Of a DNA stretch of 50,987 nt, positions 2 through 47,885 are shown one piece after another (within the stretch, counting starts at the first letter, position 1; the number at the start of each line of letters is the position of its first letter). The notes under the pieces were generated by a model. The model did no database searches, was not told the DNA's origin, and saw nothing but the letters and a program-made list of their open reading frames with translations. The position numbers and the translations under genes were made by a program. The stretch comes from Escherichia phage JLBYU10: the sequence record OK272486.1; one strand, written 5' to 3'.

Positions 2-931
2 TTATAGCAGTGATTCGGGCTTGTAGAGTTTTCTTTCTACGCCCTGTTTAAAATTATCGTTAACAGGCATCATTATGTCAAGCCCTCTTTCCTCTGCCGC
101 GATTATCACATCACGATCATCTTTCCGGCAGACTACGCGCATTCTTCTTTCTCCTTTATATCTATGCGCAACCATTTCAAGATTTGAAGGAGTAAAACAG
201 GCCCACACCTCTTGACCAGTTGATAAATGAACATGCTGAGAATCAACCCAATCAAGGCACAAATAGATCGTCTTATCTGTGCTACCTGTTTTAACAACAG
301 ATCCGCGCGTGTAGTCGCGAGCTAAAAACCAATCCTTTCCATCCTCATCAATGAAAAGCACGTTACACATTTCATCATCCAGCCCGTCATCATGCACCAG
401 GTGACAAGGTAGCGCGTGAATGTATCGACCATCCTTGACGCCGCAATCATAATGACAATCTTCCGGCGGATATATCCCTTCATAAACACTTAAAGGTGTG
501 CGATCGAATTTTAATGTTTTTGCCATCACTTTTTCGCAGCATTCATGACTTGCCTGTTTCCCGAACGAGTAACCAGAAGAACGCGAAGCGCGTTTGTTTG
601 CTCTGATCCTGTAATCCTGCGGCACTTTTCCGAGGAAGCGGCCCAAAATGTTGATGGCCTCGCTGTAAGGTTCGCCAGTTAATTTCATTAACCAACCGAT
701 CCCCGTGTCGTTGCCGCATACGTTGCAGATCGCGCCGCCGTCGCCCTCTTCATTTAGCTTATCAGTCCATCTAAAACGATCCTTACCGCCGCAGTGTGGG
801 CAAGGTTGATGCTTTTTGTTGAAAACATCGCTATGCAGTCCGCAAATGCTTTGTAGTGCTTCACGCCATAACCCCTTCATATATGGCAAAACATCTTCTT
901 TCTGATAGGTCATAAAGTTTTCAGTATTCAT
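2..931 (-). CDS. DNA primase (zinc-ribbon plus TOPRIM-like domain)
   Basis: ORF 2..1009 trimmed to internal Met with GAGG RBS; CPHCGG...CNVCG zinc ribbon; YEG and FIDEDGKD acidic motifs resembling TOPRIM. Confidence 0.55.
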   Translation of the reverse strand: MNTENFMTYQKEDVLPYMKGLWREALQSICGLHSDVFNKKHQPCPHCGGKDRFRWTDKLNEEGDGGAICNVCGNDTGIGWLMKLTGEPYSEAINILGRFLGKVPQDYRIRANKRASRSSGYSFGKQASHECCEKVMAKTLKFDRTPLSVYEGIYPPEDCHYDCGVKDGRYIHALPCHLVHDDGLDDEMCNVLFIDEDGKDWFLARDYTRGSVVKTGSTDKTIYLCLDWVDSQHVHLSTGQEVWACFTPSNLEMVAHRYKGERRMRVVCRKDDRDVIIAAEERGLDIMMPVNDNFKQGVERKLYKPESLL

Positions 932-986: not shown

Positions 987-1463
987 TTAGCTATTTGTGC
1001 TGTTATCACCTTTGTAGAATCGTCCGCCTGGTTCGTAGTCTGAATTTTTGACTACGCGCAACATCTCGTATTTGTCGCAACGGGTAGTAAGAGGCTTACC
1101 GTTAGAATCAAACCGCAGATCTGGACGACAAAATGATGCGCGGTATCCTTTGCATCCATTATATTTGTAGTCGTTATGCACCTTTTGTGCTCCAGCGGCT
1201 GAAATCATACCACGCTTTCGCCATTGGTTAACGACTTGCTGAGATACGCGTAGACGTCGAGCCATAGCAGGAACACCGCCATAATACTCGATCAGAATAT
1301 CCAAGCGAGATTTCAGGCTTGCTTTTACCTCATCTCGCAGGATAAGAAATCCGGTTCGGTGTTTTCGTGGCTTTTTGTCTTTACCTCGTCGCGTTCCGTT
1401 GTTACCGTTAATAGTGCGCTTGTCGATCTCACCCGTAGAAACCGCAATTCGTGCATCTTTCAT
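987..1463 (-). CDS. HTH DNA-binding protein (Cro/YdaS-like helix-turn-helix)
   Basis: ORF track; segment GGVPAMARRLRVSQQVVNQWRKRG looks like an HTH; basic N-terminus. Confidence 0.45.
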   Translation of the reverse strand: MKDARIAVSTGEIDKRTINGNNGTRRGKDKKPRKHRTGFLILRDEVKASLKSRLDILIEYYGGVPAMARRLRVSQQVVNQWRKRGMISAAGAQKVHNDYKYNGCKGYRASFCRPDLRFDSNGKPLTTRCDKYEMLRVVKNSDYEPGGRFYKGDNSTNS

Positions 1464-1550: not shown

Positions 1551-3548
1551 ATGATTCCAAATATCGAAAAACAAATATCAGCGTTAGGCGAGGCAGTAAT
1601 AAAAAGCATCCAAGAGCGATTCACGGTTGGCAATATAGTGCCTTATCCTTATCAGTGCGTTGCGTATGCCGAGATCGCAAAGCGCATGAAAAACTATGAG
1701 CATCCTTTCTTTGTTAAGGCTTCTGTGTCGGCTGGCAAAACATTGATGTTTGCGATGGTTGCGGCGCAATGCCGAAAAATGGGATTGAAAATGATGGTCC
1801 TTGCTCGCCAGGCTGAAATTGTTGATCAGGATTCGGAAGAGATCAGCAATCTTGGAGTGCCAAACTCAATCTATTGCGCCGGACTGAAAACAAAAAGCGC
1901 ATACTTTCCGATCGTGGTCGGTTCTGAGGGCACTGTAGTAAACGGATTGTTTAAGTCGTTAGGTGATTATGTTCCGCACGTTATCGGTATTGATGAATGT
2001 CACCAGGTGGATTGGGAGGATCTCGCGGACGCGATAGAAAATAATGAATCTTACCAGCAGATGACCACTAAGAAGGATTTGCCTGTACTGATTGGAGAAG
2101 AACAGCAATTTGATTCCAATGGCGATCCAATGTTCGGAACAGGGCGCACACAGTACACCGTAATAATCATGGAAATGATGCGCAGGTGTCGCGAGGCATA
2201 CGGGCACGAATTGCGAATATTCGGTATGACTGGATCTGAGTTTCGCGGCGTGGTTCCAATACTGGTTGAAGATAAGAACAAAAAGGGATTCTGGCGTGAG
2301 CAGGTGACTAACATAGACACAAACTACTTAATCAAATTTGGTTCGGTAGTGCCAACAAATTTCGGCGACGTAGGCGACCTGGGGTATGACCTTTCAGAGT
2401 TCGAAGCCAGTAGCGAGGATGGCGTTTCAGACTTTGACGCTAAAACATTGCGCAAGATGGAAGAAAAGATCCATCAAGACGCAACAATGACACAGAAAAT
2501 CATGGCTAAAGTCCATGAGATATGCAAAGACAGGAACGGAGTTTTAGTTACATGCGCAGGGGAAAGGCACTGCAATGAGGCCGCCGCCGCACTGCCGCCA
2601 GGCGTTGAATACAGGATCATAACTGGCAAGACTGGAGATAATCAGCGTAAAGAGTGGCTGAGGGAGGCATACGAGGGAAAAGTAAAATACATCTTCCAGG
2701 TACAGGCGCTTACCACTGGCGTTAACGTTCCGTTTTGGGATACTTCGGTAATACTGAGAAAGATAGGATCTCTAACATTGCTTATCCAGCTTTTGGGGCG
2801 CGGCATGCGACTGCTTAAGCAATGGCACATTGAGCAGGGATTCAAGAAAAAAGATCATCTTGTATTGGATTTTGCAGGTACTATGGATGAGTTAGGTGAT
2901 TTGTATTTCGATCCAATCCTTGAGCAAGCGCAATTTCAAAAGAGATTTACAAACGGGAAAGAGCCTAAGACTTGCCCGATATGTGGAACGCTAAACAGCT
3001 TTTACGCTCGCCGATGTATGCAAGTAGACGATAACGGGAAGCGATGTGAGCATTTTTGGACTTACAGAATTTGCGAGGACCAGGTAGATCCGAGAACGAA
3101 AAAGATAATCAAGCGCGGCTGCGGAACAAAAAACGACGTAGTGGCGAGAGTATGCCGTTGTTGCGATATTTCTCTTATCGATCCTAACGAGAAGTTAAGC
3201 GGTAAGCACTACACCAAAAACGATTGGTGCAACGTTAAATCTTTCCGCGTTGATATGACGAAAAACCAGAAAGGAATTATTTTTTGCTATGAGCTTGAGG
3301 CCAACGGCGACACGTTCAAGGCATACGAAAGATTTTTCCCTGAGTCAGAAAGCAACATTTGCCGGACGATATGGAGAAAAATAGCATTGCAGCACATACC
3401 GGATCGCAAGATTGCTGGTATGGTGGCGAGCTATAGAAATGCTCGTAAAATAATGTCATACGCTCATCACATCATGCCGCCTGTACGCGTAACGCATCGC
3501 AAAAACGGCAAAGGTGAGGATAACATTGCAAAACGGGAGTTTGTTTAA
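1551..3548 (+). CDS. SF2 DNA helicase with C-terminal Cys-rich zinc-binding region
   Basis: Walker A-like SAGKT, motif II IDECH, helicase C-terminal-like region, multiple CxxC near C-terminus. Confidence 0.65.
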   Translation: MIPNIEKQISALGEAVIKSIQERFTVGNIVPYPYQCVAYAEIAKRMKNYEHPFFVKASVSAGKTLMFAMVAAQCRKMGLKMMVLARQAEIVDQDSEEISNLGVPNSIYCAGLKTKSAYFPIVVGSEGTVVNGLFKSLGDYVPHVIGIDECHQVDWEDLADAIENNESYQQMTTKKDLPVLIGEEQQFDSNGDPMFGTGRTQYTVIIMEMMRRCREAYGHELRIFGMTGSEFRGVVPILVEDKNKKGFWREQVTNIDTNYLIKFGSVVPTNFGDVGDLGYDLSEFEASSEDGVSDFDAKTLRKMEEKIHQDATMTQKIMAKVHEICKDRNGVLVTCAGERHCNEAAAALPPGVEYRIITGKTGDNQRKEWLREAYEGKVKYIFQVQALTTGVNVPFWDTSVILRKIGSLTLLIQLLGRGMRLLKQWHIEQGFKKKDHLVLDFAGTMDELGDLYFDPILEQAQFQKRFTNGKEPKTCPICGTLNSFYARRCMQVDDNGKRCEHFWTYRICEDQVDPRTKKIIKRGCGTKNDVVARVCRCCDISLIDPNEKLSGKHYTKNDWCNVKSFRVDMTKNQKGIIFCYELEANGDTFKAYERFFPESESNICRTIWRKIALQHIPDRKIAGMVASYRNARKIMSYAHHIMPPVRVTHRKNGKGEDNIAKREFV

Positions 3549-3967
3549 TGGCTATAACTGATAAAGGAGATTATCTTGAGTTTTACGAAAGAGATCCAAC
3601 CGACACGAGAAAGGAAGTTAATCACCAGATAGATAGCTTTCAGTGGTTGACTTATGCTCATCCTTATTTGCTAGCGTGGCATACGGTAAACGAGAATGAG
3701 AAGTCGAAAGTAACGGCGATGATTGATCAGCAGTCCGGCTTGGTTAAGGGGGTAAGCGATTTCATCATCCTGATTGGTTCAAACGGAAAATACCCCTTTG
3801 CAGCGATTGAGATCAAACGAGTGAATAAATCAGGCAAGGGGAAAGCATCACCAGTCAGCGATGAACAAAAGGCTTTTTTGCGTCGCGTTCGCAGCTTAGG
3901 AGGATTCGCTGCGGTCGCCTACGGATTTAATCAGTTTAAGTTAGCTATTGAATACATGCTTAAATAG
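3548..3967 (+). CDS. VRR-NUC domain nuclease
   Basis: ATGA start-stop overlap with helicase; SDFIIL...AIEIKR...DEQKAF...GG.AAVAYG pattern typical of VRR-NUC. Confidence 0.6.
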   Translation: MAITDKGDYLEFYERDPTDTRKEVNHQIDSFQWLTYAHPYLLAWHTVNENEKSKVTAMIDQQSGLVKGVSDFIILIGSNGKYPFAAIEIKRVNKSGKGKASPVSDEQKAFLRRVRSLGGFAAVAYGFNQFKLAIEYMLK

Positions 3968-7588: not shown

Positions 7589-7977
7589 AGAAATTTTTAC
7601 TTACACCAATCGCAATGGCGGTGATCTTGTCTGGATGTTCAAGCGTTACGCCACTGACCGGATTAATCGGCAGTAAGCCGGAAATCACAGCGCAGGCTGG
7701 CGCGGAGAACGTGAAGCAGACAGTTGGCATTACAGCAAGGCAGGACGCCAGCACAAAACAGGAAACCACAATAAAGGAATCTGCGGTTGACAAGGTGGAC
7801 ACGTCCAGCAAGAAGGATTTCACAACATCAACCATTCAGGCCAATACCATCAAGGCAGACAAAATTCAGGTCGTGCAGGGTAATAACGGCAGATGGTACG
7901 ATCCAGTAATCATATGCGTGGTTGTGTTTCTTGTGCTGATTTGTCTTTACTGGATAGAAAAGAAAAAGGAGGCTTAA
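7585..7977 (+). CDS. unimolecular spanin (u-spanin)
   Basis: N-terminal lipobox ILSGCSS plus C-terminal transmembrane helix [16 protein letters not shown]; ATGA overlap with endolysin; architecture of T1 gp11. Confidence 0.6.
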
Positions 7978-7995
7978 CGCCTCCTTTATTTTTAT
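7960..7995. terminator. bidirectional rho-independent terminator between convergent genes
   Basis: AGGAGGC/GCCTCCT stem flanked by A-run and T-run. Confidence 0.5.
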
Positions 7996-8297: not shown

Positions 8298-8488
8298 TCA
8301 ATACGCTTTAACGTAACCAGTAATACACCATCATCATTGCATAAAACATGTTCAGTGGTGCTAAAAGCGCGCATATCTGAATAAAGCAGCGTAAGTAACG
8401 CATGAATAAAATCCTCATGTGAGATTGAATTTACGGCGCAGTGCTTCAAGATCTTGTCTATTAGCTTTTGCCTGGAACAATTCATCAT
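8294..8488 (-). CDS. hypothetical protein (overlaps upstream gene by ~74 bp)
   Basis: ORF track; GGGGAG RBS; stop embedded in motif like other real genes. Confidence 0.3.
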   Translation of the reverse strand: MMNCSRQKLIDKILKHCAVNSISHEDFIHALLTLLYSDMRAFSTTEHVLCNDDGVLLVTLKRIE

Positions 8489-8810
8489 CGCCCATCTCCC
8501 CTATTCTAGCCATATCCCTGATCCAGTCGTTGCGCATACCATCCAGGCTATACAATTCGAATCCGAAAGGCCGCTTTGACGATCCTTTGGACCAGTATTT
8601 TCCGCAGACTCCATCTATATAACCAGCCGTCATCATTCTTGCGCAAAATTCCTTAGATGCAAGGCTGGCGAACATTCGCGGCGTAAGTCCGGCGGCCCGT
8701 GCGAGCCGCTCACATTCTCTATGCTGATAGATAAATTTGGCTATGTGCTGCCTGTTAAACCAGTCGTATGACTCACACCATTTATACAGATCAAGCAAAA
8801 ACATAATCAT
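8415..8810 (-). CDS. hypothetical protein
   Basis: ORF track; ATGA overlap with upstream 526-aa gene. Confidence 0.45.
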   Translation of the reverse strand: MIMFLLDLYKWCESYDWFNRQHIAKFIYQHRECERLARAAGLTPRMFASLASKEFCARMMTAGYIDGVCGKYWSKGSSKRPFGFELYSLDGMRNDWIRDMARIGEMGDDELFQAKANRQDLEALRRKFNLT

Positions 8811-10387
8811 CCCAGCAGTATTGGATTGACAAAAATAACACCATTAATCACACAAACATAATTTCTTTCTTCCAGCATTGGCAGCAAGTGCCCTTCTATC
8901 CTCTTCATTACGCCAGCCTGACCAACGAAAGGTTTTACCTTTCTCGCTGATTCGTACAGGGCGCGAATATTCAGGATTCCTTTGTTCGCCTTGCCGTGCC
9001 TCGTGATCAATTCAATCAATTTACCCATTTCAGCATCATCACCAGCATAACCAGAAGCATTGGCGGCGCTAATGTATGTTTTGCTCAATTCCTGAAACAT
9101 GATCAACGCCTCTTGCATTGTTTCCACGTCGATCTCTTTCGACTTCTGCGGGTATCCGGCAGGATTAAACCAGTTACGGATAACATGCAGGACGGAAGCA
9201 AGCCTGATCACCTGTTTATCCATTTTACCCAGCGCACCGCGTAACATTGTATGAGAATACTTTCCTCCGTCTGCAAGATGCGGTTCCATATCCTGGCGAG
9301 CAATGTTGAGCACTCGCATAGCTGAACGGCTTATTTTCAGCGATATATTTGATTCGCTCATGATGTTATGCACCAATTGATAATATTGGGCTTTCAATTC
9401 AGAATCCACCGCCTCATAGGTAGAATCACCATTTTCATCAATGAATGAGCGACGGCCTAAGAATGATTCCTCTCGGACCAACAAAAAACGCTCACTAACA
9501 CCGATGCCTCGCGATCCAGCGTCCATTATTCCGCTTATCGTTTCATCCTGGGCTATAACGCTCATACATCCAAGCGCGCGAAAACTCATATTATTGTCAG
9601 CATTAGCGCGGGCAATTGATACGTGACCATTATCCCACGCCTTAAGCACTAACTCACTGTTAGTCTTCCTTTCGCTATTTGCATAGGTCAAGCCTAACAG
9701 ACTGTTAATACTTGTTGCTTCATCAGATATTACGGCAAAGTTACCTTGCTTGTTGTTGATTTTCGCCAAGCCTTCTGGAGTTGTATCTGAAACAGGAAAA
9801 GTTATATCACACATTTTTTCCAGCTTTTCCTCCAGATCCTCTTTTTCCTGGTATAGAGATTCCATATCAGCGCCGGATCTTTCGCTTTTCATCTCCTTTG
9901 CAAGACCTGCCAGCTTTGCCTGTATTTTCTTTCTTTCCTTGCGGCGTTGCTCGTTGATCTTCTCAACTTCCGCAATCATCGGAGCAATAGCCATGCTGTT
10001 GATCGCAGATTTACCAGTTGACGGCGGCTGGCTTGTAACGACGTAAAGCGCAGTCGGCTGATCTGTTCCGTGATAGTCAACCGTAAAGCGTCCAAGCATA
10101 GCGGCAGAAATGCAGCCGATAAAGTGCATGTAAGCCGATGATTCAGGGAATTGAACGGATCGCGCAATGCTGCGTGATAACTTGCCGACAACATCAATAT
10201 CATTACCAAGAGAAATAACGGGGTAGCGATCGTGACCGCTATTCACATCCTTTACGTCGCCCCAAAAGCTGGACGACTGGCGATAGCCGTTAGCCTGAAT
10301 TGATACGCGAACTGGCGAAAGGTTCTGGCTTTCAGCCATAGCGATTATTTGCTGTGGAGTTAATTTGTTCGTTTCTAATGAAAACAT
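8807..10387 (-). CDS. large hypothetical protein with P-loop-like motif
   Basis: 526 aa; PPSTGKS Walker-A-like; AAGGAGA RBS; coiled-coil-like KEDLEEKLEK segment. Confidence 0.55.
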   Translation of the reverse strand: MFSLETNKLTPQQIIAMAESQNLSPVRVSIQANGYRQSSSFWGDVKDVNSGHDRYPVISLGNDIDVVGKLSRSIARSVQFPESSAYMHFIGCISAAMLGRFTVDYHGTDQPTALYVVTSQPPSTGKSAINSMAIAPMIAEVEKINEQRRKERKKIQAKLAGLAKEMKSERSGADMESLYQEKEDLEEKLEKMCDITFPVSDTTPEGLAKINNKQGNFAVISDEATSINSLLGLTYANSERKTNSELVLKAWDNGHVSIARANADNNMSFRALGCMSVIAQDETISGIMDAGSRGIGVSERFLLVREESFLGRRSFIDENGDSTYEAVDSELKAQYYQLVHNIMSESNISLKISRSAMRVLNIARQDMEPHLADGGKYSHTMLRGALGKMDKQVIRLASVLHVIRNWFNPAGYPQKSKEIDVETMQEALIMFQELSKTYISAANASGYAGDDAEMGKLIELITRHGKANKGILNIRALYESARKVKPFVGQAGVMKRIEGHLLPMLEERNYVCVINGVIFVNPILLG

Positions 10388-10415
10388 TCGTTAGCTTCTC
10401 CTTTGTGGGCCGTAA

Positions 10416-10459
10416 ATTTTAACGGCCCAATACTACCCCGTTTTGTCAAAAAGTGCTAT
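10416..10459 (-). promoter_or_regulatory. Motif-type promoter-like unit (minus): ATAGCACTTTTTGACAAAAC, hairpin GGGCCG..CGGCCC, TAAAAT
   Basis: Motif overlaps TAG stop of upstream gene; -10-like hexamer in hairpin loop 22 bp after TTGACA. Confidence 0.5.
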
Positions 10460-10677
10460 TTGATCCGCTCTATTGCAACCAGAAGTCGATCAGGCTGGCG
10501 GTCGCTGTAGCATTCTCCTGTAATCCCATCCTTAAACGTAAAGTAAAGCGCCTTATGATATGAAAAACCAATCAGCCAACCTACCGCCGTTTTTTTGATG
10601 GGCCTAACTATATCGCCAGGCTTGAAAGTCTTTGTGGTAGAATGCGTTACTTTATAACGGTTTTCACTGTTTATCAC
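10456..10677 (-). CDS. hypothetical protein
   Basis: ORF track. Confidence 0.45.
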   Translation of the reverse strand: MINSENRYKVTHSTTKTFKPGDIVRPIKKTAVGWLIGFSYHKALYFTFKDGITGECYSDRQPDRLLVAIERIK

Positions 10678-11060
10678 AGATATTTGCCCTCAAACAGATA
10701 ACAGCCGCCAGCAGAGAATCCGACCTCTTCACGGTACAGGTTCCAGCGGTCGCCGCACTCATCAAAAACATAACCCGCAACGCTTCCAAGCGGTCGCCCT
10801 TTCTCGATCTGGTATCGCTTGCCCTGCTTAAAGTGCTTTTTGCACGGCATGTTATGATCTACAAACGTGCAAAGAACGGTTTTTGTGTTAATGGCGCGGT
10901 AATCATCTCGGTTTGCTGGAAGCCAGCGGCTACCCTTAACAAGCGTCTTAACCTGGAATTCTTCCACCTCGATCACATCATCACTTCCTGCAATCTTCTG
11001 ATAAACCGTTTTAAAACGGCCTTTCATCAATACGTTGGTTTCATTACAGATAACATTCAT
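10674..11060 (-). CDS. hypothetical protein
   Basis: ORF track; AAGGAGATC RBS. Confidence 0.5.
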   Translation of the reverse strand: MNVICNETNVLMKGRFKTVYQKIAGSDDVIEVEEFQVKTLVKGSRWLPANRDDYRAINTKTVLCTFVDHNMPCKKHFKQGKRYQIEKGRPLGSVAGYVFDECGDRWNLYREEVGFSAGGCYLFEGKYL

Positions 11061-11089: not shown

Positions 11090-11133
11090 ATTATGCCAGG
11101 TTTTTACACCTGGCTTTTAACAAAAAGTGCTAT
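11090..11133 (-). promoter_or_regulatory. Motif-type promoter-like unit (minus): ATAGCACTTTTTGTTAAAAG, hairpin CCAGG..CCTGG, CATAAT
   Basis: Motif overlaps TAG stop of methyltransferase-like gene; fixed 22-bp spacer. Confidence 0.5.
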
Positions 11134-11870
11134 TTTGAATTTGACTCAAAGACGGCGCGAGCAAATCCGCGCGGAGTGAGGGAGCGTAGTTGCTTTGTTC
11201 TGGCAGACTTACCGCCTAAAAACTTCCAACCCCAAAAGAACATTACGCCATCATCATTGGATAACGGCTTGCGTTCCGGTTCGGTAAATCCGTTGCCGCA
11301 CCAGATAGCCGTCCTTTTAGTGTAGCCATCCTTTAGCGGCATTTTGGGGTGAAATGACCCATCGGATTCGTCCAAGTAGTTACCAAAATCGCGCGGATTG
11401 AAATAAAAATCCGGCTTGCGCCATAGCGTTGATAGTCGGCCTACCGGATTCTCAGCCATCCAGGGAACACCGAAATGATTTCCGACTTTTTCAACCATGA
11501 TTGCATTTTGGAGCGCGATATGAATATCGTCTTCGCTGCGCACATGCTTACTTCCTGATTGGGCGAACATGGTGCAGTCTGGAAAGCCAAATACAATATC
11601 AGGTTTTGGAATATCCATCTTAATGATGTTTTCAATGAAATTTTCATCAATCCACATATTCACATAATGCAGATTTTCATGCTTCATTTTGATGAAATAT
11701 TCTCCGTGATTGCCTTCGTCAGCGTTAAAGCAATAGCATTGATAACCAGCCTTCGCATATTCAAGCAACATGATTCCAGATCCATCAAACATTGAGTAAG
11801 CAACTTTATTTCCCATGATTTTTATGATACCCCAATTCATTCTCGGCTTTACGTTTTGCGGCAACAGCAT
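11130..11870 (-). CDS. DNA cytosine methyltransferase-like protein
   Basis: FDGSG (motif I-like), GFPDC (Pro-Cys-like), ENP motifs; start uncertain (overlaps HNH gene end). Confidence 0.5.
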   Translation of the reverse strand: MLLPQNVKPRMNWGIIKIMGNKVAYSMFDGSGIMLLEYAKAGYQCYCFNADEGNHGEYFIKMKHENLHYVNMWIDENFIENIIKMDIPKPDIVFGFPDCTMFAQSGSKHVRSEDDIHIALQNAIMVEKVGNHFGVPWMAENPVGRLSTLWRKPDFYFNPRDFGNYLDESDGSFHPKMPLKDGYTKRTAIWCGNGFTEPERKPLSNDDGVMFFWGWKFLGGKSARTKQLRSLTPRGFARAVFESNSK

Positions 11871-12333
11871 CTCCAAAACTGGAGAAACAACCTATATAAA
11901 TCCTACTTCCTCGCTTTCCGCTTCCAACCCTTACAATCCACTTGCCATGTTTATTTTTATGCACGCCTGGTATGCCACTTGTATTGTTTTTCTGCTTTGA
12001 TGTGTTTCGCATATTTCCTTTGTGATCTTTTAACTCAAAGTTTATTGCTCTGTTATCAGTCGTAATGTGATTTACGTGATCAACCTCCATTCCTTCCGGT
12101 ATAGGCCCATAGTGCATTTCATAGCATATTCTATGAACTTTCAGGTTATAACGTTTTCCGTTTACAGTAAGTGCGGTTTCTAAATATCTGCCACCACTAC
12201 CCAAAGAGCCAACCTCATTACCAGCATTACAAGCATTCCATTGTTTAACTCTTGATTGGTGAATATCTTTTCTTTCTTTCCAGAACAGCTTTCCGGTTTC
12301 TGGATTGTATGTAAAGTAATCGTGCCAATTCAT
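11806..12333 (-). CDS. HNH homing endonuclease (HNH plus AP2-like DNA-binding region)
   Basis: VDHVNHITTDNR HNH signature; GIPGV...KW...VG; paralogous to ORF at 39518..39994. Confidence 0.65.
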   Translation of the reverse strand: MNWHDYFTYNPETGKLFWKERKDIHQSRVKQWNACNAGNEVGSLGSGGRYLETALTVNGKRYNLKVHRICYEMHYGPIPEGMEVDHVNHITTDNRAINFELKDHKGNMRNTSKQKNNTSGIPGVHKNKHGKWIVRVGSGKRGSRIYIGCFSSFGDAVAAKRKAENELGYHKNHGK

Positions 12334-45343: not shown

Positions 45344-46399
45344 ATGAGTGATTTTAACGCCTATACTAGCGAAGAAATGAGCAATGAGCTTTATCATGAT
45401 CCTAACGCGTGGACGGCTGAATACGTCAGCGGTTCCAGCCTGGCGGAGATTTACAGCACTTGCCCTGCCTACTGGAAGTACAAGCCTCGCCAGGAAACCA
45501 AAGCACTTGTTTTCGGTACGCAGTCGCATACCAATTTTGAAAGCAAGGAGTTATTCGAAAAAACATATCGCCGCGCACCGTCGCAGGATGATTTTAAAGA
45601 TCTGATCACAAGTCAAACGGCGTTGGCCTCAAAGCTGAAATCTTTTGGCCTGAAAGGTACAACGGGTAAGCAATACCCCGAATTGCTGGAAATGCTGTAC
45701 AAGTGCGGTGAGGATCTCAATGTATGGTGGCTTATCGAAATGATGGCAGAATGCCAGGCCGCAGCGGACGGCGTGCAGTTAATCGACGCGAAAGATTATG
45801 ATGCCTGTGTAGCGATGCGGCGCGTACTTGAGGCAATACCTGAGCATAATGCTTGCATGAATAGCCCAACCGCGCAGCGTGAAATGTCAATATTCGGGAT
45901 CATTAATGGCGTAAAAGTTAAAGTGCGCCTTGATCACGTTGACGTAAACAAGGATGTAAAGGCCACAATCATTAACGGTTACGACGAAAAAGGCCGACCG
46001 ATTTATGAAGAAGTCATCTATCCAGAAGCTGTGATTATAACTGACTATAAAACAACGGTTAGCGCAAATCCGATTGACTTCCAGCGCCTGGCTTACAATC
46101 ACGGCTATTATCTCAAAATGGCTTTGCAACATGATTTATTCAAAAAGGCGTATCCAGACGAGGAAAGACCAGTAATTGTGAGATTGCTTGCTCAAGAGAA
46201 GAAAGAGCCTTACTTGCCGCTCGCATTCCGAATGAATATTGAGCAATTGAAGATCGGGCGTATCCAGTACATGAGCGTGATCAACAAGTTCAACGTTTGC
46301 CAACAGTTAGATGAATGGCCTTCGTATGCAAACGGACAACCAGAAATTGATCTTGATACTCCTGATTGGGTGCGCGCTCAATTCAGGCAGTATCTATAA
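45344..46399 (+). CDS. recombination exonuclease (PD-(D/E)XK fold, putative)
   Basis: D...ITDYKT acidic-Lys motif; position upstream of Erf and SSB. Confidence 0.5.
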   Translation: MSDFNAYTSEEMSNELYHDPNAWTAEYVSGSSLAEIYSTCPAYWKYKPRQETKALVFGTQSHTNFESKELFEKTYRRAPSQDDFKDLITSQTALASKLKSFGLKGTTGKQYPELLEMLYKCGEDLNVWWLIEMMAECQAAADGVQLIDAKDYDACVAMRRVLEAIPEHNACMNSPTAQREMSIFGIINGVKVKVRLDHVDVNKDVKATIINGYDEKGRPIYEEVIYPEAVIITDYKTTVSANPIDFQRLAYNHGYYLKMALQHDLFKKAYPDEERPVIVRLLAQEKKEPYLPLAFRMNIEQLKIGRIQYMSVINKFNVCQQLDEWPSYANGQPEIDLDTPDWVRAQFRQYL

Positions 46400-46732: not shown

Positions 46733-47389
<657 letters not shown>

Positions 47390-47432
47390 TAAACGGGGCG
47401 CTTGCGCCCCTTTTGTCATAGGAGAAAACAAA

Positions 47433-47885
47433 ATGCACGTTATTACAGGTGAGATTCGAAAAGAGCCAAAAGTAAAGCAAATGCCTAACGGCAGCACGCT
47501 ATATGTTATTGAGCTTTCCGAGCGATACAAAGACCGAGAGGGAAATTGGCAGTATACAAACTATGTGTTTTTCTTTAACGCGAAAACAGACGGCCTGAAT
47601 GGTTGGTATGCCGAGGCGTTCCAGGTAGGCAAGGTTGTTTCTGTTTCCTGCGATACCTTGCGAGTAGAAACGCGAGAATACAACGGAAAGATTTACAGCA
47701 CCGTGCAGCCTGGCGGATTTGCAAACTTGCTATTTAGCCAGAGAGGTGAAAGCCAGCAACAATATCAGCAGCGAACGCAAGGAGGCTGGGGGCAACCACA
47801 ACAGCAACAGCAACAAAATACTCAACAGCAGCCGCAGCAAAGCAATCAGCCTCCGATTGACTTTGACGACGATATACCATTCTGA
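47433..47885 (+). CDS. ssb: single-stranded DNA-binding protein
   Basis: ORF 47382..47885 trimmed to Met with GGAGAAAACAAA RBS; Gly/Gln-rich linker and acidic tail DFDDDIPF. Confidence 0.75.
   Translation: MHVITGEIRKEPKVKQMPNGSTLYVIELSERYKDREGNWQYTNYVFFFNAKTDGLNGWYAEAFQVGKVVSVSCDTLRVETREYNGKIYSTVQPGGFANLLFSQRGESQQQYQQRTQGGWGQPQQQQQQNTQQQPQQSNQPPIDFDDDIPF

What the first reader, a model, noticed from the sequence alone, without database searches (positions are those of the whole stretch)
8807..10387. 526-aa P-loop protein of unknown function in the leftward block
The largest gene in the leftward block has a Walker-A-like PPSTGKS but no other motif I can assign. A large NTPase in the replication-proximal region could be a primase/helicase-associated or helicase-loader-like factor, or something unrelated.
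Basis: inference. Interest (0 to 1): 0.4.

Follow-up and report, generated by a model that had tools for sequence, protein, structure and literature searches.

The report
MCM-like DUF3987 helicase of a T1-like phage
The 526-residue P-loop gene is the conserved DUF3987 (MCM-like AAA+) DNA helicase of T1-family coliphages, most likely the phage's own replication-fork helicase; it is real but already catalogued and therefore ordinary.

Summary
The ORF exists exactly as described (8807..10387, minus strand, 526 aa, PPSTGKS at residues 121-127). The window is essentially a whole Drexlerviridae (T1-like, Warwickvirus) genome. The protein is 100% identical to proteins of phages swan01 and KMB46 and 58% identical to T1 ST9.

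It is not an orphan. It matches Pfam DUF3987 (E=1.7e-44) and PHROG 2373 'DNA helicase' (E=2.6e-244). A confident AlphaFold2 model (pLDDT 87) finds only MCM subunits among its top 50 PDB matches.

Beyond Walker A, the family keeps several residues invariant: the Walker-B glutamate (VISDE), Q280 (IAQDE), an MCM-style 'SERF' arginine finger (R300), R260 in a beta-hairpin, and K388 in the lid. A C-terminal winged helix follows.

Relatives are fused to DnaG-type, PriCT or DnaB-N domains. In more distant phages the gene sits in one module with a T7-gp4-type primase, an SF2 helicase, RecE/Erf and SSB.

Published work predicted DUF3987 as an SF6 replicative helicase (2016) and showed one member to be a 5'-3' helicase (2025).

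Best reading: a hexameric replicative helicase working with the phage primase and host Pol III (inferred, confidence about 0.7). Novelty: already known. Interest is low. No T1-family member has been tested experimentally.

The parts
8807..10387 (-). Complete CDS (526 aa plus TGA), 58.2 kDa, pI 6.6: DUF3987-family putative helicase, orthologue of phage T1 ST9
10398..10403 (-). Shine-Dalgarno AAGGAG, 10 nt upstream of the ATG at 10387
   Evidence: sequence read directly
10097..10387 (-). N-terminal helical region (residues 1-97; helices 11-21, 25-33, 36-41, 66-78, 82-97). This position holds DnaB-N, PriCT or DnaG-Zn-ribbon/primase domains in longer relatives. Inferred to be a partner- (primase-) or DNA-docking domain.
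   Evidence: AF2 model; fusions; N-terminal length variation
9098..10147 (-). Pfam PF13148 DUF3987 match (residues 81-430): AAA+-like ATPase core plus helical lid
   Evidence: Foldseek to MCM
10007..10027 (-). Walker A / P-loop PPSTGKS (family signature Q-P-P-S-T-G-K-S; K126 invariant in 151/151, first Gly replaced by Q120)
9812..10006 (-). Long, highly charged (43% KRED) helical hairpin inserted right after the P-loop (helices 126-166 and 172-191). It is present in the whole family, 37-84 residues long. Its function is unknown.
   Evidence: coiled-coil noise hits
9719..9733 (-). Walker B strand VISDE. E223 is invariant, but the aspartate D222 is not conserved in the family (D 65, A 48, S 32 of 151).
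9578..9625 (-). Predicted beta-hairpin (residues 255-270) carrying invariant R260, placed where the pre-sensor-1 hairpin of MCM and SF3 helicases sits. Inferred to contact DNA in the central channel.
   Evidence: position and role inferred
9542..9556 (-). IAQDE at the end of the next core strand; Q280 conserved 150/151, candidate sensor 1
9485..9496 (-). SERF motif; R300 invariant 151/151. It resembles the MCM 'SRF' arginine finger just before the last core strand (301-305).
   Evidence: the MCM motif is recalled from general knowledge
9224..9241 (-). RGALGK in the helical lid; K388 invariant, R383 conserved 113/151; candidate sensor 2
8810..9052 (-). C-terminal winged-helix-like domain (residues 446-526: helix, short strand, two helices, beta-hairpin wing). 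It matches PHROG 7327 on its own.
   Evidence: the C-terminal wHTH of DUF3987 is described in PMC4889955
8415..8810 (-). 131-aa ORF translationally coupled to the helicase (ATGA overlap). PHROG 2794, unknown function. Conserved downstream of the T1 orthologue (ST10) but not in more distant phages.
2..931 (-). Phage DNA primase with a T7-gp4 / P4-alpha-type zinc ribbon and no helicase domain of its own: the presumed partner
1551..3548 (+). SF2 (ResIII/Helicase_C) helicase, followed by a VRR-NUC nuclease (3548..3967): the second, distinct helicase of the module

Best explanation
The gene encodes the Drexlerviridae member of the DUF3987 family, a divergent MCM-like (superfamily 6, AAA+) ring helicase.

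Proposed mechanism:
- Subunits assemble into a hexamer.
- ATP binds between subunits, held by the P-loop (K126/S127) and the catalytic E223 of one subunit.
- R300 (SERF) of the neighbouring subunit acts as the arginine finger.
- Q280 and K388 (possibly with R383) sense the gamma-phosphate.
- The beta-hairpin carrying R260 lines the central channel and pulls single-stranded DNA through.

The helicase would unwind the phage replication fork. The separately encoded T7-gp4/P4-alpha-type primase lays down primers, and host DNA polymerase III does the synthesis, because the phage has no polymerase gene. The variable N-terminal region and/or the C-terminal winged helix would dock the primase or DNA.

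What is shown here:
- family membership;
- motif conservation;
- MCM-like predicted fold;
- the genomic association with replication genes and the domain fusions of relatives.

What is inferred:
- hexamer formation;
- helicase activity and its polarity (5'-3' by analogy with AgaPH);
- the partnership with the primase and Pol III;
- essentiality.
For: Family and annotation:
- Pfam DUF3987 E=1.7e-44 over residues 81-430.
- PHROG 2373 'DNA helicase' E=2.6e-244 over the full length.

Structure:
- The AF2 model has pLDDT 87.1 and pTM 0.85.
- Its 50 best PDB Foldseek matches are all MCM2-7 or archaeal MCM chains, probability 1.00, best E=1.7e-5.
- Its viral-library matches are DUF3987 proteins, helicases and primase-helicase fusions.

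Catalytic residues:
- K126, E223, R260, G296, R300 and K388 are invariant, and Q280 is 99% conserved, across 151 relatives down to about 25% identity.

Domain fusions in relatives:
- DnaG CHC2 zinc ribbon, PriCT_2, DnaB N-terminal domain and pRN1 helical domain precede DUF3987 in longer relatives.

Genomic context:
- The gene is a core gene of the family. Record counts per host genus track those of the primase and the major capsid protein, and the T1 orthologue ST9 is 58% identical.
- In more distant phages the gene lies inside the replication/recombination module: Akira, a metagenomic contig, pYD38-B and Vibrio phage 1.263.A. In 1.263.A it heads one operon with the gp4-type primase, Dam, SF2 helicase and RecE-like exonuclease.
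- The genome has a primase lacking a helicase domain, and no DNA polymerase is annotated.

Literature:
- DUF3987 was predicted as an SF6 replicative helicase with a C-terminal wHTH. N4 dns, essential for replication, is a member (PMC4889955).
- PriCT-DUF3987 AgaPH is an ATP/dATP-dependent 5'-3' helicase that needs Walker A and B and binds its primase-polymerase (PMC11724360).
Against: - No experiment exists on any Drexlerviridae orthologue that I could find.
- In this genome the gene is not next to the primase. It sits in a block of small genes of unknown function, beyond the lysis cassette.
- The genome carries a second helicase (SF2) right beside the primase. The T1/TLS literature treats that one as 'the' replication helicase (PMC11447400).
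- The MCM link rests on predicted-structure similarity with low global TM-scores (0.30-0.37) and 9-14% identity. HMMER profiles find no MCM or any PDB entry.
- The Walker B aspartate is missing in more than half of the family, and the P-loop lacks its first glycine. The ATPase site is therefore atypical.
- I could not consult the classical data on which host dna genes T1 needs. If T1 needs host DnaB at the fork, the phage protein would have a narrower role.
Confidence: 0.7

Rival explanations
1. It is a self-loading initiator-helicase. The C-terminal winged helix (or the N-terminal domain) recognises the phage origin, the ring assembles and melts the DNA there, and the protein then serves as fork helicase, as P4 alpha, SaPI Rep or papillomavirus E1 do. 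This refines the main reading rather than excluding it.
For: A winged-helix-like C-terminal domain is predicted and is reported as typical of DUF3987. No lambda O/P-like or DnaA-like initiator and no helicase loader is annotated in the genome. The primase resembles the primase part of P4 alpha according to the T1 record's note.
Against: No iteron array or other repeated binding-site cluster was found anywhere in the window. The TLS authors also found none. A Cro/YdaS-like HTH protein encoded just upstream of the primase (987..1463) could be the origin binder instead. T1-like phages may start replication by recombination (RecE/Erf/SSB module).
Confidence: 0.3
2. It is an accessory helicase or translocase rather than the fork helicase. 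It might serve recombination-dependent replication, fork restart or primosome assembly, while host DnaB or the phage SF2 helicase drives the fork.
For: The gene always co-occurs with an SF2 helicase plus RecE/Erf/SSB recombination genes. The SF2 helicase, not this gene, is adjacent to the primase in Drexlerviridae. The phage relies on host Pol III and might also use host DnaB.
Against: SF2 helicases paired with a VRR-NUC nuclease look like branch-processing enzymes rather than fork helicases (inference). Relatives carry DUF3987 directly after the DnaB N-terminal domain or after primase-associated domains (DnaG zinc ribbon, PriCT, pRN1 helical domain). This is the position other primase-helicase proteins give to a known replicative helicase domain, and published work reports that DUF3987 substitutes for MCM, RepA or DnaB domains in such fusions. 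AgaPH forms a complex with its primase-polymerase.
Confidence: 0.2
3. It is a non-helicase AAA+ ATPase, such as a loader or remodeller, or has a role outside replication such as host takeover or anti-defence.
For: It lies in a block of small early-type genes of unknown function. One of those genes may be a defence trigger. The Walker B and P-loop are atypical.
Against: There is no PADLOC hit. The full set of ring-ATPase residues, including a trans-acting arginine, is invariant. A family member has proven helicase activity. The fusions and gene neighbourhoods are those of replication genes.
Confidence: 0.07

Closest known systems
Phage T1 ST9 and its Drexlerviridae orthologues (annotated 'DNA helicase' or 'putative helicase'; in TLS 'yfiJ putative ATPase')
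   Same: Orthologues: 58% identity over the full length with T1 ST9, and 100% with swan01 and KMB46. The synteny is the same: a leftward block after the lysis cassette, followed by the PHROG 2794 gene.
   Different: Nothing of substance. None of them has been characterised experimentally as far as I could find.
AgaPH, the PriCT-DUF3987 helicase associated with a pAgo-linked primase-polymerase (Seonamhaeicola sp.; PMC11724360)
   Same: [quoted passage not shown] It is the only biochemically characterised member I found: an oligomeric ATP/dATP-dependent 5'-3' helicase that binds its primase.
   Different: AgaPH has an N-terminal PriCT domain and pairs with an AEP primase-polymerase encoded next to it. 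The phage protein has a different short helical N-terminus. Its likely partner is a DnaG/T7-gp4-type primase encoded 8 kb away.
MCM (superfamily 6 AAA+ replicative helicase of archaea and eukaryotes)
   Same: The predicted ATPase core, lid and C-terminal winged helix superpose best on MCM chains. It has an SRF-like arginine-finger motif and a beta-hairpin before the sensor-1 strand. It was linked to MCM by HHsearch in PMC4889955.
   Different: There is no Pfam MCM hit and no N-terminal OB-fold/zinc domain. A long helical hairpin follows the P-loop, and no helix-2 insert is evident. The Walker B aspartate is not conserved. The one tested DUF3987 protein moves 5'-3', whereas MCM moves 3'-5' (the MCM polarity is general knowledge).
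Phage P4 alpha protein (primase + SF3 helicase + origin-binding domain)
   Same: It combines the same set of functions: a zinc-ribbon/TOPRIM-type primase, an AAA+ ring helicase and a C-terminal DNA-binding winged helix. The T1 primase is annotated as similar to alpha-type primases.
   Different: Here the functions are split over two genes, and the helicase is DUF3987 (MCM-like) rather than SF3. Origin binding is not shown.
Phage N4 dns protein
   Same: It is a DUF3987-type helicase domain in a lytic coliphage and is reported essential for replication (PMC4889955).
   Different: N4 dns carries a C-terminal AEP primase domain. I did not compare it directly here.

Membership tests
DUF3987 (Pfam PF13148) | Score above the Pfam gathering threshold over most of the model | tested here: met
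   152.9 bits against a cutoff of 27, E=1.7e-44, profile positions 3-350 of 364
DUF3987 (Pfam PF13148) | Conserved Walker A lysine and Walker B glutamate (needed for AgaPH helicase activity) | tested here: met
   K126 and E223 are invariant in 151/151 relatives. The Walker B aspartate is variable across the family.
DUF3987 (Pfam PF13148) | [quoted passage not shown] | tested here: met
   The AF2 model at pLDDT about 90 shows helix, strand, two helices and a beta-hairpin wing over residues 450-520. This rests on topology only, with no separate fold search. C-terminal length is conserved at about 92-102 residues.
DUF3987 (Pfam PF13148) | Fused to, or encoded next to, a primase (typical of the family, not obligatory) | tested here: inconclusive
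   It is not adjacent in this genome: the primase is at 2..931 and the helicase at 8807..10387, with 12 genes between. It is in the same module in Akira and Vibrio phage 1.263.A. It is fused in P0156, P0227 and P0193.
DUF3987 (Pfam PF13148) | ATP-dependent 5'-3' DNA unwinding by an oligomer | not testable with these tools
   Known only for AgaPH
MCM / superfamily 6 helicases | Sequence-profile match to the MCM AAA+ domain (PF00493) | tested here: not met
   No MCM hit at E<=1 for the query or any of 60 diverse relatives. There are no PDB hits by HMMER profile. HHsearch was not available.
MCM / superfamily 6 helicases | AAA+ core, lid and winged helix structurally most similar to MCM | tested here: met
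   The Foldseek top 50 PDB hits are all MCM, probability 1.00, E from 1.7e-5 to 2.4e-3. However TM is only 0.30-0.37 and the query is a predicted model.
MCM / superfamily 6 helicases | N-terminal OB-fold/zinc-binding domain forming the N-tier ring | tested here: not met
   Residues 1-97 are predicted all-helical, and no zinc motif is present.
MCM / superfamily 6 helicases | Trans-acting arginine finger in an SRF motif, and a pre-sensor-1 beta-hairpin | tested here: met
   SERF with invariant R300 lies before strand 301-305. Hairpin 255-270 with invariant R260 lies before strand 273-279. Their roles are inferred.
MCM / superfamily 6 helicases | Helix-2 insert hairpin | tested here: not met
   Helix 204-214 is uninterrupted in the model. 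Instead a 65-residue helical hairpin follows the P-loop.
DnaB / superfamily 4 (RecA-fold) replicative helicases | DnaB_C / RecA-type ATPase domain | tested here: not met
   No Pfam DnaB_C hit and no SF4 helicase among the top 50 structural matches. In relatives the DnaB N-terminal domain is followed by DUF3987 and not by a detectable RecA-type domain.
Anti-phage defence or counter-defence proteins | Match to a PADLOC model | tested here: not met
   No family at E<=0.01

The most novel reading that the evidence does not exclude
T1-family coliphages would run a hybrid replisome. An MCM-like AAA+ ring helicase of bacterial-virus origin would translocate 5'-3', the opposite of MCM, E1 and large T antigen. 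It would replace host DnaB at the fork. It would couple a T7-type primase to the host Pol III holoenzyme, perhaps through the family-specific charged helical hairpin or the N-terminal domain. The classical phage T1 would then be a tractable model for how an AAA+ helicase works with reversed polarity and an aspartate-less Walker B.
Probability: 0.3. Interest if true: 0.5.

Novelty: already known. Interest (0 to 1): 0.15.

Why it matters
For the scan, it removes an apparent 'unknown P-loop protein': the gene is the family's catalogued DUF3987 helicase.

Three points remain of modest interest.
- T1-like phages are among the commonest coliphages and Klebsiella phages, yet their replication machinery has not been worked out. 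Recent descriptions still name only the SF2 helicase next to the primase.
- By HMMER sequence and profile searches, no DUF3987 relative has a solved structure, and only one has been assayed.
- The family deviates from textbook AAA+ motifs: Q instead of the first P-loop glycine, and a dispensable Walker B aspartate.

A T1-family orthologue would be an easy system for settling polarity, partners and structure.

Tried and rejected
- NCBIfam scan: no hit.
- Sequence (phmmer) and profile (24- and 60-sequence HMM) searches of PDB chains found only coiled-coil or chance matches at E>0.3. No solved relative was detected by sequence.
- I tried to sharpen the MCM comparison by modelling the ATPase core alone (residues 98-430, 12-sequence alignment). 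The model failed (pLDDT 56.8, pTM 0.43). It was not searched, and the third fold search was left unused.
- Pfam scan of 60 diverse relatives for weak MCM, AAA or DnaB_C hits: none.
- Search for iterons or repeat arrays as a candidate origin for the winged helix to bind: only two-copy short repeats, nothing convincing.
- Promoter/terminator scan of the leftward block gave fewer promoter-like sites than the shuffled controls. The only clear feature is the bidirectional terminator at 7965-7987.
- PADLOC scan for defence relatedness: none.
- Literature searches for classical T1 genetics (genes 1 and 2, host dna-gene requirements; Figurski and Christensen, Bourque and Christensen, Ritchie et al.) found nothing in the held library. 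I do not use my uncertain recollection of them as evidence.
- Searches for defence-escape mutations in this gene found none.
- The supplement of Kazlauskas et al. 2016, which might list T1, is not held.
- The 'YdbL', 'phosphoglucomutase', 'TamB' and similar labels in the JLBYU07 record are rejected as over-annotation. Pfam and PHROGs give no such functions.
Full report
**1. The observation**

The ORF is real and the coordinates are exact: 8807..10387, minus strand, ATG start, 526 aa. It is the largest ORF in the leftward block, which runs from about 15.5 kb down to the bidirectional terminator at 7965-7987. A good ribosome-binding site, AAGGAG, lies 10 nt before the ATG. The TGA stop overlaps the ATG of the next ORF, 8415..8810, as ATGA, which suggests translational coupling. 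PPSTGKS is residues 121-127, window 10007..10027.

That does not hold. VISDE (219-223), IAQDE (278-282), SERF (298-301) and RGALGK (383-388) are all present and conserved.

**2. What the window is**

The 4 kb around the gene are 99.5% identical to Escherichia phage JLBYU07 (Drexlerviridae, Tempevirinae, Warwickvirus). They are 98-99% identical to SECphi27, tonn, swan01 and others. The window is in effect a complete T1-like phage genome.

The protein is 100% identical to the one encoded by phages swan01 and KMB46. It is 58% identical over its full length to phage T1 ST9, annotated 'DNA helicase'. T1 shows the same local order: lysis genes, terminator, a small ORF, the PHROG 2794 gene, then this gene.

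tblastn finds the protein in 925 phage records, 911 of them at full length. Record counts per host genus match those of the phage primase and the major capsid protein:

| Host genus | DUF3987 helicase | Primase | Major capsid protein |
|---|---|---|---|
| Klebsiella | 420 | 469 | 413 |
| Escherichia | 294 | 316 | 331 |
| Shigella | 37 | 37 | 36 |

The gene is therefore a core gene of the family.

**3. Family assignment**

- Pfam gives DUF3987 (PF13148), E=1.7e-44, 152.9 bits against a cutoff of 27, residues 81-430.
- PHROGs places the whole protein in phrog_2373 'DNA helicase', E=2.6e-244. The last 85 residues also match phrog_7327.
- NCBIfam and PADLOC give nothing.
- An exhaustive HMMER search of 1.84 billion cluster representatives finds 2635 relatives at E<=1e-3 and 672 at E<=1e-10.

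Most of the 150 best-scoring relatives are about 520 aa, like this one. Others are longer (about 580-970 aa) and carry the DUF3987 module at the C-terminal end. Pfam identifies the N-terminal parts of some of them:

- a DnaG-type CHC2 zinc ribbon (P0156);
- PriCT_2 (P0227);
- the DnaB N-terminal domain (P0193, plus a second case);
- the pRN1 primase helical domain.

These are primase domains, or domains of the kind that precede the ATPase domain in known replicative and primase-helicase proteins. DUF3987 therefore occupies the slot that a RecA-type or SF3 helicase domain holds in other replicative helicases.

**4. Structure**

AlphaFold2 with a 24-sequence alignment (36-100% identity) gave a confident model, mean pLDDT 87.1 and pTM 0.85. 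The order of elements along the sequence is:

1. a helical N-terminal region (1-97);
2. a strand leading into the P-loop (115-127);
3. a very long helical hairpin (126-166 and 172-191), 43% charged residues;
4. the Walker B strand (217-221);
5. a beta-hairpin (255-270);
6. a strand ending in IAQDE (273-282);
7. SERF, followed by the last core strand (301-305);
8. a helical lid (329-405);
9. a winged-helix-like C-terminal domain (about 450-520).

Foldseek against the PDB returned 30 matches at E<=1e-3. The 50 best are without exception Mcm2-7 subunits or archaeal MCM (4r7y, 8q67, 6mii), probability 1.00, best E=1.7e-5. Global TM-scores are low (0.30-0.37) and identity is 9-14%. This is fold-level resemblance on a predicted model and does not establish membership.

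Against the viral predicted-structure library, the matches are DUF3987 proteins, 'helicase' entries and primase-helicase or primase-polymerase fusions.

HMMER sequence and profile searches find no PDB entry at all. They also give no Pfam MCM hit in 60 diverse relatives. An attempt to model the ATPase core alone failed, at pLDDT 56.8, and was discarded.

**5. Conserved residues**

I aligned 151 sequences reaching down to about 25% identity (also A3).

- Strictly invariant positions: K126 (P-loop), E223 (Walker B), R260 (beta-hairpin), G296, R300 (SERF) and K388 (lid).
- Q280 is conserved in 150/151.
- T203, E205, E306 and R313 are conserved in 94-99%.

This is the pattern expected of a ring ATPase whose active site is completed by an arginine from the neighbouring subunit.

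Two deviations are worth recording. First, the P-loop reads Q-P-P-S-T-G-K-S, with Q120 (97% conserved) where the canonical first glycine would be. Second, the Walker B aspartate is not conserved (D 65, A 48, S 32 of 151), while the following glutamate never varies. The helical hairpin after the P-loop is present throughout the family, at 37-84 residues.

**6. Genomic context**

In this genome the replication and recombination genes are scattered:

| Gene | Window coordinates |
|---|---|
| T7-gp4/P4-alpha-type primase, with Zn_Ribbon_Prim and no helicase domain | 2..931 (-) |
| Cro/YdaS-like HTH protein | 987..1463 (-) |
| SF2 helicase (ResIII + Helicase_C) | 1551..3548 (+) |
| VRR-NUC nuclease | 3548..3967 (+) |
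| RecE-like exonuclease | 45344..46399 |
| Erf | 46736..47389 |
| SSB | 47382..47885 |

No DNA polymerase is annotated, as also stated for T1 and TLS in PMC11447400.

The DUF3987 gene lies about 8 kb from the primase, beyond the lysis cassette. In more distant relatives the link is much tighter.

- Salmonella phage Akira (36% identity): DUF3987, two small genes, then primase, SF2 helicase, exonuclease VIII, Erf and SSB.
- A 78-kb metagenomic contig (37% identity): DUF3987 is immediately followed by the SF2 helicase, a RecE-like gene, AAA_24 and SSB.
- Vibrio phage pYD38-B: a similar arrangement.
- Vibrio phage 1.263.A: its DUF3987 gene is too divergent for tblastn with this query. There the gene heads one co-directional operon with the gp4-type primase, Dam, the SF2 helicase and a RecE-like exonuclease.

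The set of DUF3987, an SF2 helicase, recombination genes and an SSB or other P-loop ATPase is thus conserved in all these relatives. A primase is annotated with it in two of the four (Akira, 1.263.A). The Drexlerviridae arrangement is a rearranged version. The constant co-occurrence of the two helicases argues that they do different jobs.

**7. What is known**

Kazlauskas, Krupovic and Venclovas (2016, PMC4889955) identified phage DUF3987 proteins as divergent SF6 (MCM-related) helicases. A mycobacteriophage Corndog member reached 98% HHsearch probability to MCM. They noted the association with AEP or DnaG primases and a C-terminal winged helix. They proposed that these proteins are replicative helicases. 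They also noted that the N4 dns protein, essential for replication, is a member.

A 2018 study of AEP primases found DUF3987 substituting for MCM, RepA or DnaB domains in primase fusions (PMC5862659).

In 2025 a PriCT-DUF3987 protein, AgaPH, was purified. It is oligomeric and unwinds 5'-tailed and forked DNA, which indicates 5'-3' polarity. It uses ATP or dATP and loses activity on Walker A or B mutation. It binds its primase-polymerase (PMC11724360).

I found no experiment on a T1-family orthologue. A 2024 re-annotation of phage TLS names only the primase and the SF2 helicase as replication initiators. The TLS GenBank record calls this gene 'yfiJ putative ATPase'.

**8. Most likely mechanism**

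The protein most likely forms a hexameric ring helicase and serves as the phage's replication-fork helicase.

- ATP is bound by K126/S127 and hydrolysed with E223.
- R300 from the adjacent subunit acts as the arginine finger.
- Q280 and K388 (possibly with R383) act as sensors.
- The R260 hairpin faces the channel and moves ssDNA.
- The primase, which has the zinc ribbon of T7 gp4 but lacks its helicase half, would dock on the ring.
- Host Pol III would synthesise the DNA.

Shown here: family membership, motif invariance, MCM-like predicted fold, and the fusion and neighbourhood patterns. Inferred: hexamer formation, unwinding and polarity (5'-3' by analogy with AgaPH), the partners, and essentiality. 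I put this reading at about 0.7.

A refinement has the winged helix or the N-terminal domain recognise an origin, so that the protein loads itself. This is possible (about 0.3) but has no sequence support. No iterons were found.

The main true rival is that host DnaB or the SF2 helicase drives the fork and this protein has an accessory role (about 0.2). A non-helicase or non-replicative role is unlikely (about 0.07).

**9. Comparison and membership**

The protein is a member of DUF3987. The profile threshold, the catalytic residues and the C-terminal winged helix are all met.

It works like an MCM-type AAA+ helicase, but I do not file it as an MCM.

- The MCM sequence profile is not matched.
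- The N-terminal OB/zinc tier is absent.
- No helix-2 insert is seen, and a different insertion is present.
- The only measured polarity in the family is opposite to that of MCM.

It is not a DnaB/SF4 helicase. Functionally, the primase plus this protein resemble a split version of P4 alpha, with the SF3 helicase replaced.

**10. Verdict**

The finding is real but ordinary. The gene is a known, widely annotated core gene of T1-like phages. It belongs to a family that was predicted in 2016 and shown in 2025 to be a helicase. Novelty: already known. Interest: 0.15.

The residual value is that no DUF3987 relative with a solved structure was detectable by sequence, and no T1-family orthologue has been tested. 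The atypical ATPase motifs and the reported reversed polarity make it a reasonable, though not surprising, target.

Noticed in passing
window 10674..11060 (-): A 128-aa ORF of unknown function (PHROG 2684) lies two genes upstream of the helicase. The same ORF is gp13 of SECphi27 (128 aa, region 98.8% identical). Stokar-Avihail et al. [quoted passage not shown] This may be that gene, but the text gives no gene identifier, so it is not verified.
   Followed up: partly
window 11806..12333 (-), overlapping 11130..11876 (-): An HNH endonuclease ORF sits directly upstream of the cytosine methyltransferase gene, and the listed ORFs overlap. Close relatives such as SECphi27, tonn and swan01 align only up to about window 11187, whereas JLBYU07, Poky and AV105 align through to 12000. 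The region beyond about 11187, which holds this ORF, therefore differs between close relatives. In T1 an HNH gene (ST8) lies immediately upstream of the helicase gene instead.
   Followed up: no
window 10407..10428 (-): A perfect 7-bp GC-rich hairpin (GGGCCGT, 8-nt loop, ACGGCCC) lies in the 68-nt spacer between the 73-aa ORF and the helicase ribosome-binding site. It is not followed by a T-run, so it is not a canonical terminator. It could be an RNA-processing or stability element.
   Followed up: no
window 9719..9733 and 10007..10030 (-); family alignment: Family-wide, the Walker B aspartate is dispensable (D 65, A 48, S 32 of 151) while the glutamate is invariant. The P-loop has an almost invariant Gln in place of the first glycine. 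An invariant T-P-E (T203, E205) precedes helix 204-214. This is an atypical nucleotide site for an AAA+ helicase.
   Followed up: partly
window 8415..8810 (-): The 131-aa ORF translationally coupled to the helicase (ATGA overlap) is labelled 'YdbL' in several records, but it has no Pfam hit and PHROG 2794 has unknown function. It is conserved next to the helicase in T1 (ST10) but not in Akira, pYD38-B or the metagenomic relative. It could be a family-specific helicase partner.
   Followed up: partly
window 7965..7987 (both strands): A 9-bp-stem hairpin with T-runs on both sides separates the rightward lysis cassette from the leftward block. It is a bidirectional terminator, annotated at the equivalent place in T1.
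   Followed up: no
public records, not the window: About 20 'Campylobacter phage' records (for example A112a, 25 kb, host C. jejuni) carry this T1-like helicase at 88% identity, together with the primase and capsid genes. This looks like contamination or host mis-assignment. In Shigella phage 2019SD1 (an unverified nanopore assembly) the gene is broken into five pieces.
   Followed up: no
L007 (Vibrio phage 1.263.A, MG592627) 2159..3580: About 250 Vibrio phage records share the capsid and the N-terminal primase zinc ribbon with T1-like phages. Only 25 are detected by tblastn with this helicase. The one I inspected nevertheless has a divergent DUF3987 gene at the head of its replication operon, so the helicase evolves much faster than the capsid across this supergroup.
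   Followed up: partly
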